Source of the DNA: a virus
Taxonomy: Duplodnaviria > Caudoviricetes
DNA: 64,000 bases
Direction: 5' to 3' (one strand)
IMG/VR virus record: IMGVR_UViG_3300045391_006539
The stretch's first letter is position 1. The number at the start of each line of letters is the position of its first letter. Both the position numbers and the translations under genes were made by a program. Shown here piece after piece: positions 10,201 to 46,009 of the stretch. Under the pieces are notes generated by a model, which was not told where the DNA came from, ran no database searches, and worked only from the letters and a program-made list of their open reading frames with translations.

Positions 10201-10365
10201 GATTTGCCAGTGCGCAAGACCCAGCGCAAGGAGATGCGGGAACAGGAGTTGTCGATGGGCGAGTTCGAAGACGCGAACTACGAATTCGATTTCTCGGACA
10301 TTCAAGATGTTGTCGAAGTCGACATCCCAGGCAGCTTCTTGCCAGTCCCCAACAGCAATCCATGA
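7282..10365 (+). CDS. Large putative structural (baseplate/tail-associated) protein, ~1030 aa
   Basis: Long ORF with 'IVADINAA' and 'VGDAVLITTG..Y.I' modules shared with the 58773-62768 baseplate protein. The start is uncertain (7261 or 7282). Confidence 0.6.
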   Translation: MTSQSLTWFLDVAEPTLPAAPPVVPADSNYTSTEIAVAVDKLVQGAIRRPYGALGERQTGTTFDDTMDAAAGVFILTPEAPFYVLLLGSRRLSELVTSLLDDSQKLVAAIDATGRRVKPVENLTNLGNARTALAALESASNVRDSVFEDIETTSAFQRFDLHTSRFLDQNAKNIRVGQNIVETPQKARKSLGELVSAVTEGLAEVQRRVGLLAAGIDDYNAMNLPALLARGVISRARGVIDDRITQMEALTPTARLEVLRETVLDVLASKAVVKGFGSLPKSGTFADVDGIAVPFADADHLATPALVSSDLLDPFIIIAGQDTLTFTVEGGPTTVSIPLQRSFLARIQGTIAEPYEIVNSVNDELSIVLDPGNDFVVNLTTGAARTAPQIVADINAAITTQLIVAESFLAPEKFIGIVNMTGTDPNMVFTVSAGTNFFQLSVDVGDAVLITTGVYNQAYFTITAVTTTTISATRSGGSAVAAATNVSISVGPPDRFVRVRVSDGDEAEALEDSMTIEAEANAGDPSAWATLGIFPGSVSQCRRTRAEEVALSINSSASAAVAGVARVAAAAVFVGGGSLAGRSEPTDPFKVMSSVFRALADIIDDGPTPARFAISGAASAGVVVGDRVTLRSAALSSQVGLRGTITLVTDTEIRANMLGLLTVQTGVDLEVGKNLDAQKDQVVVIAAPSPAAGVYRVIEDAQNVTEITLDRPLPNYYTFGSRPLTFSFELGANRVDFQSLSTSTSSRIAVSGNAHDVFFDENPDEAVGGSAFVLLAEDPKTLGFGDRFEIYTGQYDVPEHSFAVIGFEQGQQLIELDGDVPLSFTQLDFSRETPAPFARIRKVARNNYDDFKVQLGLWQVLSVNEQSWTRDLNRFINPLIVNENPTLAATNTAKLHVQTLVQALGQLQTIIAGYEVDTVPRVDTLVDSFLSRGSDRAVDTLLEGRFQDFFGFTSEEMSYLGNALERLREVSRLDLPVRKTQRKEMREQELSMGEFEDANYEFDFSDIQDVVEVDIPGSFLPVPNSNP

Positions 10366-10400
10366 GGGGCTAAAAGAAGTGGACCCTGAGGCCCACTTCT
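10364..10400 (-). terminator. Terminator hairpin closing the Cas7-like gene/array transcript
   Basis: AGAAGTGG/CCACTTCT stem followed on the minus strand by TTTTAGCCCC. It lies at a convergent junction. Confidence 0.65.
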
Positions 10401-10414
10401 CCAACCTCCAAAGA

Positions 10415-11393
10415 GGTTTCCTTGCCCTGCCTCACCGCGCTGCGCATCGCCTGGCAGAGACTCGCATCGCACAGCGACGAACCTTGCCGAGCCACGCCGT
10501 GCACGGCGATACCACGCCTTGCCAATCCACGCCATGCCCGGCATTGCCTTGAACCTTGCCCTGCTTGGCACCGCCAGGCCTTGCCACGCCTAGCCTTGCA
10601 GCGAACCTTGCCGTGCAGAACTGCGCCCTACCAAGCCTTGCCGTGCAGAGCCAAGCCGAGAACCTCGCCCAGCCGTGCAGAGCCATGCAACGCACCACCG
10701 CACCATGCCTCGAACCTAGCCACGCCTTGCCTCGCCCTGCATCGCCAAGGACGGCCTTGCCGTGCCTAGTCATGAACCTTGCAACGCCGGGCAGAGCAGT
10801 GCCTAGCATCGCACTGCCGGACCATTCCTAGCATCGCCGCGAACCTTGCCTTGCTCTGCATAGCCACGCTGCGCGTAGCCGTGCATCGCCATGCCTCGAA
10901 CCTTGCCGTGCAGCACCTCACATCGCCATGCCAGGCCTCACTATGCCAGGCCACGAACCTTGCCCTGCCTGGCAGAACCCTACCCCGCCTAGCCCGGCCC
11001 AGCCAAGCCACGAACCTTGCCTCGTCATGCCGAGCCTTGCCGAGCACCGCCTTACCGAGCCATGAACCTCGCCTCGCATAGCCTGACCTAGCGCCGCCGT
11101 GCCGCAGCTCACATCGCCACGACAGGAACCGCGCTGCGCCGAGCCTTGCCATGCAGGACCGTGCCACTCGATGCCGGGCCACACCATCCCGAACCTCGCA
11201 GAGAACCTTGCCTTGCCATGCCGAGCCTGGCCTTGCCATGCCTGGCCATGCCACTCGGTGAACCTTGCCGAGCACCGCTCTGCCATGCCATGCCTGGCCT
11301 CGCCATGCCACTCGGTGAACCATGCCTCGAACCTTGCCTCGCCGGGCACCGCCTTGCCATGCCGAGCCTGGCCTCGGCACGTACCTTGTCTTG
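10415..11393 (-). ncRNA. Pentamer-periodic guide-like array ([NN-GGY]n-GGTTC units, ~16 full units), VIPR-like vrRNA array
   Basis: On +, units begin with GAACC at 10479, 10551, 10603, 10660, 10712, 10774, 10841, 10898, 10955, 11012, 11064, 11126, 11191, 11203, 11260, 11317, 11329. Spacings are almost all 5n+2, and the interiors alternate GCC/GCA/ACC triplets with variable dinucleotides. The array lies directly 3' of the Cas7-like gene. Confidence 0.85.
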
Positions 11394-12068
11394 CTAGACC
11401 TTCTTCGTTTTCTTGCTCACATGCTCCTTGTGCGGACGGTGTTCCACCCATTTTGTCACACGAAACGTCCCGAACGGCCCGCGTTTCTCGGGTCTGAAGT
11501 CACCGATGCCCACCTGAGTCCCAGCCTCCACGAGTAGTTGCTGGCAGACCTCGGTGCTGATGAGGTCGGTGCTCACCTCGATATCGAACTTGAGGCTCCA
11601 GTTCTCGTACTTGGGTCTGTAACGCATGATGCGACCCTTGGTGGCGGGGATGACCACGGGTCTTGCGTCTACGATGACATCCTTGTCCTTGGCGACCTTG
11701 CTGCCGATGTAGATGGGCAAGGTCCCATCTACCGTCATTATGCGTACGGCGCTCGGTACGAGATAGCGCAAGCTCTTGCGCGTGCCCCTCTGCTTGTGGT
11801 TGCCACCCGTCGTAATCATCGCGTTGACGATGGCGAACGCCGAGATGTAGTGGCTGCCGTCACTAGCGACATTGGCCGCGCTCAGTGCCTCTGCGCGTGT
11901 GTCTCGAATTTGCTTGTGCTTCGCCGTCCGCGTCTCTTTGGGCTGCTCGTTCTCTTCCCGGAAACGTTGGATGAGAAGTGGATTGATACCAGTCACCTCC
12001 ACCGAGATGGACTGGACGTTGGTCGCGCTCAGAATGCCGATGTCGGTTGATTTACGCTTTGCTGCCAT
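11394..12068 (-). CDS. Stand-alone Cas7/RAMP-like RNA-binding protein (Vipr-like)
   Basis: RAMP-like N-terminal strand (ISVEVTGINPLLI), 'RIMRYRPKYENWSLKFDIEV' and a C-terminal G-rich loop (AGTQVGIGDFRPEKRGPFGTFRV). AAGGAG RBS. No other cas genes nearby. Confidence 0.8.
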   Translation of the reverse strand: MAAKRKSTDIGILSATNVQSISVEVTGINPLLIQRFREENEQPKETRTAKHKQIRDTRAEALSAANVASDGSHYISAFAIVNAMITTGGNHKQRGTRKSLRYLVPSAVRIMTVDGTLPIYIGSKVAKDKDVIVDARPVVIPATKGRIMRYRPKYENWSLKFDIEVSTDLISTEVCQQLLVEAGTQVGIGDFRPEKRGPFGTFRVTKWVEHRPHKEHVSKKTKKV

Positions 12069-12451
12069 TGAAAGAATTACTCTCCTTGCTCTGTTTATCC
12101 CCGGTTTTCTCGCGGTCTTTCAGTCTCCTTGAAAGGAGTCGACCAAATGAGAGATAACCAGTTCGGAGGAGAACTATGCAAAGTGAAACCCTGACGCTCA
12201 GATTGAGGAAGTGGTGAGCAAGCCCATCATCCATCAGATGAGGCAGGACAACCTCAACATACATCCCTACTGCGTCTGTGACGAGACGCCTTGCCCGCCG
12301 ACCATGTCGCTCAGCAAGATGTCGCTCGGCAAGCTCAAGGGCCCATTCAACCGGGCGACCTTCTTCGTCTATAAGGCAACTAACGGCCGCTTGTATACAT
12401 ACATGCCCGAGTTCGTGACGTGCGAGCAATGCATCGCGAGGCAGTCCAGTA

Positions 12452-41426: not shown

Positions 41427-41503
41427 GCGCTGGTAGCTCAGCCTGGTAGAGCACTGAAGCTCAAGCAACTTCAGAGTCGTGCGTTCAAATCGCACCTGGC
41501 GCG
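41427..41503 (+). tRNA. Atypical tRNA with enlarged anticodon arm (6-bp stem, 9-nt loop CTCAAGCAA; nominal anticodon CAA)
   Basis: Acceptor GCGCTGG/CTGGCGC, canonical D-arm TAGCTCAGCCTGGTAGAGC, T-arm GTGCG-TTCAAAT-CGCAC. The anticodon arm is 4 nt too long. Confidence 0.75.
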
Positions 41504-41510
41504 CTCGTTA

Positions 41511-45763: not shown

Positions 45764-46009
45764 CTACTTCGTAGTCCTACCGTGCTGCTCGTCGTAGAGT
45801 CGGCCGATTTCCCGACGCTGTGCGGCTGCCTCGTCCTCGGTGAGGTCGGGTAGTCCACGGCAGGCACGGGAGAGGACCATCTCTCCATAGACCCAGCTGA
45901 TGGCTTGTTCACGCCGGTGCCGGGCTTTCTCCTCTGGAGTCAGGGCCTCGAAGGCCGCGATGGCCTTCTTCGCTAGTTCTCGTAGTTCGGGTCTGTCACT
46001 TAGAACCAT
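45764..46009 (-). CDS. Small hypothetical protein immediately downstream of the TIGR array
   Basis: Its ATG overlaps the last array repeat; sequence includes LTPEEKARHRREQAISWVYG. Confidence 0.55.
   Translation of the reverse strand: MVLSDRPELRELAKKAIAAFEALTPEEKARHRREQAISWVYGEMVLSRACRGLPDLTEDEAAAQRREIGRLYDEQHGRTTK

What the first reader, a model, noticed from the sequence alone, without database searches (positions are those of the whole stretch)
10364..12102. Stand-alone Cas7-like gene with a 5-nt-periodic [NN-GGY]n array: a non-CRISPR RNA-guided system using a gapped dinucleotide code (VIPR-like)
Seen: a self-contained minus-strand unit of promoter motif (12095-12102), RBS, a 224-aa RAMP/Cas7-like protein, a ~1-kb array and a terminator. 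The array has no CRISPR repeat-spacer structure. Each unit is ~10-14 pentamers of a near-constant triplet (GGC/TGC/GGT on the transcribed strand) plus a variable dinucleotide, ending in (AA)GGTTC. Delimiter spacings are 72,52,57,52,62,67,57,57,57,52,62,65,12,57,57,12,52, i.e. 5n+2 in all but one case. Example on + (10955): GAACC tt GCC ct GCC tg GCA ga ACC ct ACC cc GCC ta GCC cg GCC ca GCC aa GCC ac. Established: Cas7 proteins polymerise along guide RNA with a fixed nucleotide step. Inference: one subunit binds each pentamer and holds the GGY, while the NN pairs jointly specify a non-contiguous target. With no nuclease, Cas1/2, Cas5 or Cas6, it probably acts by binding and repression against competing phages or host genes. 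From memory this matches the recently reported VIPR (viral interference programmable repeat) architecture, which should be verified.
Basis: partly seen in the sequence, partly recalled or inferred. Interest (0 to 1): 0.96.

Follow-up and report, generated by a model that had tools for sequence, protein, structure and literature searches.

The report
Phage VIPR guide-RNA system
This is a real example of the VIPR system first described in 2026 preprints: a small Cas7-like protein gene followed by about 19 guide RNAs built from five-base GGY-NN repeats, carried by a large uncultured soil phage, so it is a new member of a known kind rather than a new kind.

Summary
On the minus strand, a 224-aa gene (11394-12068) is followed 8 nt later by a ~970-nt tract of NN-GGY pentamers. 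GGT(T/A)C junctions cut the tract into 19 units, and a strong terminator hairpin closes it.

The protein is a true Vipr:
- It matches the solved SUSP1 Vipr protein by sequence (PDB 36pp, E 1.5e-7; profile comparison 98% probability over 171 columns).
- It keeps the GGY-contact residues R151, D190, F191 and R192.
- Its model matches Cas7/Csm3/Cmr4 folds.

Of 88 related loci, 86 carry a same-strand GGY/NN array abutting the gene.

VIPR is already published (bioRxiv 10.64898/2026.04.26.720920, .720927 and 2026.10.15.759431). This scan has noted VIPR-like arrays before on other DNA (214 notes in at least 158 genomes).

Particular to this locus:
- No vap accessory gene.
- No structured 3' tail. Guides abut through a 7-nt junction that shifts the pentamer register by +2, a layout shared across this Vipr clade.
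- The same phage also carries a TIGR-Tas-like array.

Natural targets were not found. Eight exact 1-nt-skip scans, local searches and 401 genomes gave nothing. NN composition fits codon positions 1-2, as the published rule predicts.

The parts
12095..12102 (-). GGGGATAA motif 27 nt upstream of the vipr start; candidate phage promoter element (inferred)
   Evidence: There are 5 copies in the window against 0.52 expected, and no shuffle of 100 reached 5. The site at 47810 shares the longer ACCGGGGATAA and also precedes an ATG. No sigma-70 match was found.
12082..12087 (-). Ribosome-binding site AAGGAG, 13 nt before the ATG
   Evidence: Read from the sequence.
11394..12068 (-). vipr gene: 224-aa Vipr (RAMP/Cas7-like) protein P0001, stop TAG at 11396-11394
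   Evidence: PDB 36pp 'SUSP1 Vipr protein' E 1.5e-7. hhalign to SUSP1 Vipr gives 98.2% probability, E 2.7e-14. phrog_4652 E 2.8e-20. AF2 pLDDT 81.6. Foldseek top hits are Cas7/Csm3/Cmr4 at E 3e-6.
11381..11387 (-). First unit boundary AAGGTAC, 8 nt after the stop codon; it sets off the first guide from the vipr mRNA
   Evidence: The same arrangement occurs in relatives L006 and L050.
10419..11380 (-). vrRNA array: 19 head-to-tail units of NN-GGY pentamers joined by GGTTC junctions. Sixteen units have 7-14 NN and three are 2-3-pentamer remnants
   Evidence: It is the only such tract in the window. It shows no coding periodicity, has no Pfam hit for its ORFs and no Rfam family.
11331..11380 (-). 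unit 1, 10 NN (GT.GA.CA.TC.AT.AA.GG.CC.GA.AA)
11319..11328 (-). unit 2, 2 pentamers (remnant)
11262..11316 (-). unit 3, 11 NN
11205..11259 (-). unit 4, 11 NN
11193..11202 (-). unit 5, 2 pentamers (remnant)
11128..11190 (-). unit 6, 12 NN; register variant that starts directly with GGY (spacing 65 = 5n)
11066..11125 (-). unit 7, 12 NN; several degenerate triplets
11014..11063 (-). unit 8, 10 NN
10977..11011 (-). unit 9, 7 NN
10957..10974 (-). unit 10, 3 pentamers (remnant, out of register)
10900..10954 (-). unit 11, 11 NN
10843..10897 (-). unit 12, 11 NN
10776..10840 (-). unit 13, 13 NN
10714..10773 (-). unit 14, 12 NN
10662..10711 (-). unit 15, 10 NN
10605..10659 (-). unit 16, 11 NN
10553..10602 (-). 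unit 17, 10 NN
10481..10550 (-). unit 18, 14 NN (the longest guide)
10419..10478 (-). unit 19, 12 NN; terminal unit ending GGAAAC instead of GGTTC, as in relative L006
10403..10418 (-). Small hairpin AACCUC-UUUG-GAGGUU directly after the last unit
10372..10402 (-). Intrinsic terminator: 13-bp hairpin followed by UUUU
   Evidence: Fold of 10364-10482: -58 kcal/mol, z -3.35, and none of 200 shuffles folded as well. The rule-based scan missed it because the U run has only four U.

Best explanation
The locus is a stand-alone VIPR (Viral Interference Programmable Repeat) system of a large uncultured soil phage.

Proposed sequence of events:
1. vipr and the array are made as one transcript that ends at the hairpin at 10402-10372 (inferred: only 8 nt separate the stop codon from the first junction, and no other terminator was seen).
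2. The transcript is resolved into up to 16 usable vrRNAs of 7-14 NN-GGY pentamers.
3. By homology with SUSP1 Vipr, one Vipr protomer binds each pentamer. The thumb and glycine-rich loop hold the GGY bases, using R151, D190, F191 and R192 (R138, D177, W178 and R179 in SUSP1).
4. The NN dinucleotides are presented to pair with double-stranded DNA that reads NN-x-NN-x-NN, skipping one base.
5. The bound filament blocks transcription of the target. The likely targets are genes of competing phages, satellites or other mobile elements in the same host.

Specific to this clade (inferred): guides have no structured 3' tail and no ribozyme. Each boundary is a 7-nt step (GGT + T/A + C + 2 nt) that shifts the pentamer register by +2. 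This shift should interrupt the Vipr filament and expose a short linker for trimming.
For: Shown here:
- Direct sequence homology to the solved SUSP1 Vipr (E 1.5e-7; 26% identity over 82% of the protein; hhalign 98.2%, E 2.7e-14, 171 columns).
- The GGY-contact residues named in 10.64898/2026.04.26.720927 align to R151, D190, F191 and R192, which are invariant in 46 relatives.
- The AF2 model (pLDDT 81.6) has an RRM core, a beta-hairpin thumb (132-154) and a Gly-rich loop (183-200). All of the 50 Foldseek matches listed are CRISPR RAMPs, mostly Cas7-type backbone subunits: type VII Cas7, the type III-A Csm backbone subunit, Cmr subunits and Cas7-11.
- Array statistics.
- 86 of 88 related loci have a same-strand GGY/NN array abutting vipr.
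- The closest viral relatives, L006 and L050, have the same GGTWC, 5n+2 layout with entirely different NN.
- A +2 register jump is the commonest junction in the clade: 92 of 182 junctions.
- NN composition fits codon positions 1-2 (-3.97 bits per NN) better than positions 2-3 (-4.47), positions 3-1 (-4.82) or genome dinucleotides (-4.16). This is what a wobble-skipping code predicts.
- No self-target in the window, as reported for published VIPRs.
- Viral context: tail-fibre PHROG hits, a contig of up to 200 kb and 128 relatives in IMG/VR.

From the literature: filament formation, the 1-nt skip, dsDNA binding and repression were shown for SUSP1 and P. fulva VIPR.
Against: - No expression, processing or binding data exist for this locus.
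- No natural target was found.
- H17 of SUSP1, which contacts G1, is Q34 here, although it is H in the clade consensus.
- About 29% of triplets depart from GGY (24 TGC and 21 others), and three units are too short to guide. Part of the array may be decaying.
- The protein is only 26% identical to the characterised Vipr, so the skip length and DNA preference rest on homology and on the composition test alone.
- No vap gene is present, whereas the paper calls a vipr-vap pair typical.
Confidence: 0.9

Rival explanations
1. A genuine VIPR system whose guides are aimed mainly at the host chromosome (host take-over or regulation by the jumbo phage), or at the phage's own late genes outside the window, rather than at competing mobile elements.
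For: - No viral target was found in eight exact scans of viral and metagenome collections.
- The host is unknown.
- The published work shows that VIPR can silence any dsDNA target without a PAM.
- Satellites are reported to redirect VIPR to host sites (abstract).
Against: - Published natural targets are overwhelmingly satellites, prophages and other VIPRs.
- There is no self-target in the 64-kb window.
- The exact-match scans were insensitive, so their emptiness says little either way.
- One guide with up to 3 mismatches found nothing in 401 genomes of one candidate host phylum.
Confidence: 0.12
2. A decaying or inactive VIPR remnant: the protein or the array no longer works, and the tract persists as neutral repeat DNA.
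For: - 29% of triplets are not GGY.
- Three units have only 2-3 pentamers and two junctions are out of register.
- Q replaces the G1-contacting His.
Against: - The ORF is intact, and all 40 clade-invariant residues are by construction present in P0001.
- G at pentamer position 4 is kept in 96% of units while NN stays near maximal entropy. This is a signature of selection, not drift.
- An identical copy occurs in at least two samples or assemblies.
Confidence: 0.05
3. The tract is a protein-coding gene for a repetitive Gly/Ala/Arg-rich protein. Gene callers place a 185-aa ORF there, and ORFs of 204 and 177 aa are open.
For: Long open frames exist at 10766-11380 and 10918-11451. A public gene call covers part of the tract.
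Against: - There is no period-3 signal (0.22, against 9.9-56 in real genes of the window), and the repeat period is 5 with +2 shifts.
- Frames are open in several phases on both strands.
- There are no Pfam hits.
- 'Homologues' of these ORFs are simply other arrays hit in mixed frames and strands.
Confidence: 0.01
4. An unusual CRISPR-Cas remnant: a solo Cas7 of a type III or type VII system with a degenerate CRISPR array.
For: The best structural matches are Cas7-type backbone subunits of type VII and type III complexes.
Against: - There is no repeat-spacer organisation. Units are only 60-75% alike, and that likeness is due to the GGY triplets alone.
- No other cas gene or Pfam/PADLOC/NCBIfam cas model was found.
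- Sequence homology is to Vipr, not to any Cas7.
Confidence: 0.01

Closest known systems
Type II VIPR system of Escherichia phage SUSP1 (Vipr + vap1 + vrRNAs; bioRxiv 10.64898/2026.04.26.720920, structures in 10.64898/2026.04.26.720927, PDB 36pp)
   Same: - Homologous Vipr protein over its full length, with conserved GGY-binding Arg, Asp, aromatic and Arg residues.
- Guides made of GGY/NN pentamers, 7-14 per unit here against 9-16 there.
- Phage-encoded, with no cas genes and no CRISPR array.
   Different: - Only 26% identity.
- No vap gene.
- SUSP1 has four separate ~100-nt vrRNAs. Each has its own leader and a ~40-nt pseudoknotted tail, as read in the SUSP1 locus. Here 19 units abut through 7-nt GGTWC junctions inside one apparent transcription unit, with no structured tail.
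- The triplet is GGC-dominated here (GGT in SUSP1), and W178 is F.
'Staggered vrRNA arrays' of other VIPR types (fig. S18 of 10.64898/2026.04.26.720920)
   Same: [quoted passage not shown] That fits head-to-tail units without tails.
   Different: The figure and data tables are not held, so I could not check three points: whether the published staggered arrays use the GGTWC junction, whether they show the +2 register shift, and to which of the seven types this Vipr clade belongs.
Vipr-array loci of uncultured viruses IMGVR_UViG_3300005829_000016 (L006) and IMGVR_UViG_3300017780_001774 (L050)
   Same: Vipr is 59% and 51% identical. Unit layout is identical (NN-GGC ... NN-GGT-T/A-C, spacings all 5n+2), and the terminal GGAAAC is also found in L006.
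   Different: These loci have fewer units (5-8). The array lies upstream of vipr in L050. The NN content is unrelated.
Class 1 CRISPR backbone subunits (type VII Cas7 8yhe, type III-A Csm backbone subunit 6ifn, Cmr subunit 6s6b)
   Same: RRM core, thumb and glycine-rich loop fold (Foldseek E 3e-6 to 1e-4, TM about 0.5). Both polymerise along a guide with a fixed step (literature).
   Different: - 8-15% identity.
- No crRNA repeat handle.
- A 5-nt step with three bases sequestered, instead of a 6-nt step with one base flipped.
- No partner Cas proteins.

Membership tests
VIPR system | Vipr protein homologous to the founding Vipr family | tested here: met
   phmmer to PDB 36pp_D 'SUSP1 Vipr protein' gives E 1.5e-7. 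tblastn to SUSP1 and SUSP2 gives 26% identity over 82% of the protein. hhalign gives 98.2% probability, E 2.7e-14.
VIPR system | Minimal RAMP fold: single RRM core, thumb and glycine-rich loop | tested here: met
   AF2 pLDDT 81.6, pTM 0.76. All of the 50 Foldseek PDB hits listed are CRISPR RAMPs, mostly Cas7-type backbone subunits, each at probability 1.00. The Gly-rich segment 183-200 has invariant G183, G187, G197 and G200 (G189 nearly invariant).
VIPR system | Residues that read the GGY motif (SUSP1 H17, R138, D177, W178, R179) | tested here: met
   R151, D190, F191 (aromatic for W) and R192 are aligned and invariant in the clade. H17 aligns to Q34, which is H in the clade consensus. That is four of five kept or conservatively replaced.
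VIPR system | Adjacent non-coding tract of at least 4 tandem YNNGG/GGY-NN pentamers with conserved GGY and hypervariable NN | tested here: met
   157 in-phase pentamers, GGY in 71%, position-4 G in 96%, NN entropy 1.9 bits each. It is the only such tract in 64 kb.
VIPR system | Protein and array co-occur across relatives | tested here: met
   86 of 88 related loci have a same-strand array within about 0-90 nt of vipr.
VIPR system | Not associated with a CRISPR array or cas genes; viral or proviral context | tested here: met
   No Pfam, PHROG, PADLOC or NCBIfam cas hits for the protein or its neighbours. Tail-fibre genes flank the locus, and there are 128 IMG/VR relatives.
VIPR system | vap accessory gene in an operon with vipr (typical, not universal) | tested here: not met
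   No same-strand neighbour exists: a 1069-aa gene converges and a divergent operon lies upstream. No neighbour of the window's vipr recurs in 88 related loci, and no accessory family is present in more than 20 loci. The paper itself lists stand-alone vipr genes.
VIPR system | Structured invariable 3' tail (a pseudoknot in type II) or ribozyme between guides | tested here: not met
   Units are separated only by GGTWC junctions. No Rfam family, including hammerhead, was found at E up to 1. The SUSP1 tails were read for comparison. This is a type-specific feature, not a family-defining one.
VIPR system | Targets read by the 1-nt-skip rule (NN-x-NN) | tested here: inconclusive
   NN composition fits codon positions 1-2 best. 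No natural target was found: 0 exact hits for 7 guides, and local best matches equal the shuffled background at every skip length.
VIPR system | vrRNAs expressed and bound by Vipr; repression of targets | not testable with these tools
This needs sRNA-seq, pull-down and reporter assays.
CRISPR-Cas (class 1) | Repeat-spacer array with a constant repeat of 25-40 nt, plus further cas genes | tested here: not met
   TRF finds only periods of 5, 10, 12, 15 and 20. Units are 60-75% alike through GGY alone. There are no cas genes.

The most novel reading that the evidence does not exclude
This Vipr clade may use a tail-less 'register-break' way of defining guides. The only boundary signal is a 7-nt GGT(T/A)C step that shifts the pentamer register by +2. 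This step is conserved in the window and is the commonest junction in relatives (92 of 182). The break in the Vipr filament, rather than a structured tail, ribozyme or dedicated nuclease, would then set the length of each vrRNA and allow about 19 guides in one transcript. In addition, this jumbo phage pairs VIPR with a TIGR-Tas-like array, which would make it a virus armed with two unrelated RNA-guided DNA-recognition systems.
Probability: 0.3. Interest if true: 0.55.

Novelty: new member of a known kind. Interest (0 to 1): 0.3.

Why it matters
VIPR is a very recent discovery: a noncontiguous RNA code for DNA recognition, proposed to be older than CRISPR.

This locus adds a well-preserved, divergent example. 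It is 26% identical to the characterised protein and comes from a ~200-kb soil phage. It has a lone vipr gene and one of the larger guide sets, 19 units.

Its compact array, with 7-nt junctions and no tail, is shared by many uncultured relatives. If processing works as inferred, this would be the simplest known multiplexed guide array, which is of practical interest for multiplex VIPR tools. A TIGR-Tas-like locus 34 kb away suggests that large phages stack RNA-guided systems.

None of this changes the known picture of what VIPR is.

Tried and rejected
1. Natural targets by exact scan. Exact 1-nt-skip patterns of units 18 (13-NN and 11-NN core), 13, 14, 11 and 12 in viral contigs, and of units 18 and 16 in metagenome contigs, all gave 0 hits. 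Exact matching is far less sensitive than the published 80%-NN criterion, so this is not evidence against targeting.

2. Natural targets by local search. Gapped searches at skips 0-3 with shuffled-guide controls covered the 64-kb window and 640 kb of related loci. Best matches (65-85% of NN bases) equalled the background.

3. Natural targets in genomes. Unit 18 with up to 3 mismatches found nothing in 4 MAGs that carry relatives, nor in 401 genomes of the phylum of one of them.

4. Overlapping guides. I asked whether guides tile one target (units 7 and 11 share CT.xT.GA.GA.GC.AC; units 3 and 4 share AC.GT.AT). Shared NN runs are no longer than in shuffles: a maximum run of 4 has P = 0.19. Rejected as unsupported.

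6. Known RNA families, including hammerhead: none.

7. Close relatives of the whole phage. megablast of 24 kb against 50,697 phage records gave no match. A first peptide-pattern scan with the single protein found nothing; the alignment-based scan then worked.

8. Type assignment (I-VII). This was not possible, because the paper's figures and data tables are not held.

9. The weak blastn hits of the array to Mycobacterium cluster-F-like phages proved to be their own GGC/NN array next to a vipr-like gene in BobaPhett, not homology of guides.
Full report
**What is in the sequence**

Read on the minus strand, the region holds these elements in order:
- a GGGGATAA motif (12102-12095);
- an AAGGAG ribosome-binding site (12087-12082);
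- a 224-codon ORF (12068-11394, protein P0001);
- a first AAGGTAC junction 8 nt after the stop codon;
- about 960 nt built from pentamers of a variable dinucleotide plus GGC, GGT or TGC.

GGT(T/A)C junctions divide the tract into 18 units, and a 19th unit ends GGAAAC. Two hairpins follow, the second a 13-bp stem with a UUUU tail at 10402-10372.

In the 16 units that keep register I counted 157 pentamers. The triplet is GGY in 71% and [G/T]GY in 88%. Position 4 is G in 96% and position 5 is a pyrimidine in 97%. The two variable positions carry 1.86 and 1.90 bits.

Sixteen of 18 junction spacings are 5n+2, so each junction is a 7-nt step that shifts the pentamer register by +2. Otherwise its description is accurate.

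**More than chance, and not coding**

A scan of both strands of the whole 64-kb window for 50-nt stretches with at least 6 of 10 in-phase GGY returns only this tract.

The tract has no 3-nt periodicity: power is 0.22, against 9.9 in vipr and 56 in the neighbouring 1069-codon gene. It has strong local 5-nt periodicity instead.

The long ORFs that gene callers place in it have no Pfam match. They 'match' other arrays in mixed frames and on both strands. Tandem Repeats Finder sees only periods of 5, 10, 12, 15 and 20. Units are 60-75% alike, and that likeness comes from the constant triplets alone. It is therefore not a CRISPR repeat-spacer array. No Rfam family matches.

**The protein**

Pfam, NCBIfam and PADLOC give nothing. 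PHROGs gives phrog_4652, of unknown function, at E 2.8e-20.

Against the sequences of solved structures, the only significant match is 36pp chain D, 'SUSP1 Vipr protein', at E 1.5e-7. tblastn finds the SUSP1/SUSP2 gene at 26% identity over 82% of the protein, and a Pseudomonas phage gene at 30%. A profile of 46 relatives aligns to SUSP1 Vipr over 171 columns with 98.2% probability and E 2.7e-14.

The structure paper names the residues that hold the GGY bases: H17, R138, D177, W178 and R179. They align here to Q34, R151, D190, F191 and R192. The last four are invariant in the clade, and position 34 is His in the clade consensus.

An AlphaFold2 model (pLDDT 81.6, pTM 0.76) shows the beta-alpha-beta core, a beta-hairpin thumb and a glycine-rich loop. 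All of the 50 Foldseek matches listed are CRISPR RAMPs, mostly Cas7-type backbone subunits, at E 3e-6 and above: type VII Cas7, the type III-A Csm backbone subunit, Cmr subunits and Cas7-11.

**Relatives**

The protein family is large. There are 897 proteins at E up to 0.001 in the 5.8-billion set, the nearest at 66% identity. There are 128 relatives in IMG/VR. Six loci were found in GTDB genomes, all Verrucomicrobiota or Planctomycetota MAGs.

In 86 of 88 fetched loci, a same-strand GGY/NN array abuts the gene, upstream, downstream or both. The nearest viral relatives (L006 at 59% identity, L050 at 51%) have the same unit layout as the window, with GGTTC or GGTAC junctions and every spacing 5n+2. 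Their NN content is unrelated, and L006 shares the terminal GGAAAC. Across the clade, +2 is the commonest register jump between successive in-phase blocks: 92 of 182 junctions, and the commonest jump in 35 of 60 loci. Other relatives, such as L074, use a conserved AT-rich element between guides instead.

No neighbouring gene of the window's vipr recurs in the relatives, and no accessory family is found in more than 20 of 89 loci. This clade is therefore mostly a lone vipr gene plus arrays.

**What is known**

VIPR was reported in 2026. The main points are:
- Vipr is a minimal RAMP, found mainly in phages and proviruses.
- vrRNAs consist of 9-16 YNNGG repeats.
- The NN dinucleotides pair with dsDNA while skipping one base.
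- Binding represses transcription.
- Natural targets are satellites, prophages and other VIPRs.
- Seven types differ in array architecture and vap genes, including 'staggered' arrays in which one vrRNA ends where the next begins.

This scan has also flagged VIPR-like loci many times on other DNA: 214 notes in at least 158 genomes.

**How it most likely works here**

The steps below are inferred by homology unless marked otherwise.

1. A single transcript runs from upstream of vipr to the terminator at 10372. No internal terminator or promoter was detected, and 8 nt separate the stop codon from the first junction.
2. Vipr protomers load one per pentamer and clamp GGY through R151, D190, F191 and R192.
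3. The +2 step at each GGTWC junction breaks the protomer-to-protomer register. Each unit then forms its own filament, and the exposed linker is trimmed. This step is my inference and is untested.
4. Each RNP scans dsDNA for NN-x-NN-x-NN and silences transcription.

One test done here bears on step 4. The NN dinucleotides resemble codon positions 1-2 of this phage's genes (-3.97 bits per NN). They resemble positions 2-3 (-4.47), positions 3-1 (-4.82) and bulk dinucleotides (-4.16) less well. This is what a wobble-skipping code aimed at coding DNA of similar composition would give.

**Targets**

I could not find any target.
- Local gapped searches at skips 0-3, with shuffled-guide controls, gave only background in the window and in 640 kb of related loci. 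Absence of self-targets agrees with the published systems.
- Eight exact-pattern scans found nothing: six of IMG/VR and two of JGI metagenomes, covering seven guides.
- One guide with up to 3 mismatches found nothing in 405 genomes.
- Exact matching is much stricter than the 80% criterion used in the paper, so these blanks are uninformative.
- An apparent overlap between guides was no better than shuffles.

**Context**

The window shows tail-fibre genes upstream and no close relative among 50,697 phage records. The same protein occurs on contigs of up to 200 kb, and in a JGI soil metagenome contig that is identical over 6 kb. Earlier notes on this genome describe it as a large uncultured soil phage with a single-chain RNA polymerase.

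The same window also holds a 36-nt periodic array next to an IS110/Tas-like gene at 45.9-47.8 kb.

**Verdict**

The locus is a genuine, apparently intact VIPR system. It is a new member of a known kind.

Three features are particular to it: a lone vipr gene, 19 abutting guides with 7-nt register-shifting junctions and no structured tail, and a TIGR-Tas-like array in the same jumbo phage. These are worth a note, but part of them is probably covered by the 'staggered arrays' of the original paper, whose figure I could not see.

Noticed in passing
window 45988-46643 (-) and 46642-47778 (-): A second candidate RNA-guided system lies in the same phage. The motif AGAGACCCR recurs on the minus strand at steps of about 36 nt, with 14 matches at up to 1 mismatch. 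It sits directly downstream of a 378-aa gene that hits phrog_4285 'transposase' at E 8.9e-39. TRF does not detect it.
   Followed up: partly
window 12095, 29491, 47810, 49544, 63511: GGGGATAA occurs 5 times against 0.52 expected. The copies before vipr and before the gene at 47835 share ACCGGGGATAA followed by an RBS and an ATG within 30 nt. A similar GAGATAA-N-GGAGG-ATG lies on the + strand at about 12160-12178. This may be a phage-specific promoter, given the phage's own RNA polymerase noted elsewhere in this genome.
   Followed up: partly
L001 (Mycobacterium phage BobaPhett, NC_051636.1 37842-38833): This cultured cluster-F-type mycobacteriophage has a ~240-nt GGC/NN pentamer tract directly upstream of gene 52. 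Gene 52 is annotated as hypothetical and its product ends in a GDWRP motif like the Vipr G-loop. One annotated 'gene 51' lies inside the pentamer tract and is probably spurious.
   Followed up: partly
L004 6778-6900: A relative's contig has a second short GGY/NN array followed by an uncalled ORF that begins MKSIEVKIKGINPLL. This looks like a second vipr copy 1.2 kb downstream of the first.
   Followed up: no
L076 (IMGVR_UViG_3300012971_000018, 112-kb contig): Eight separate GGY/NN arrays are spread over 8 kb around one vipr gene, several of them kilobases away. They may be 'solo' vrRNA arrays like those described in the October 2026 preprint.
   Followed up: no
window 10419-11380 (NN positions): GG is under-represented among the NN dinucleotides: 6 observed against about 15 expected from codon positions 1-2. 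This would avoid creating out-of-register GGY triplets.
   Followed up: no
window 41427-41504 (+): A single tRNA-Leu (anticodon AAG) gene lies in the phage window.
   Followed up: no
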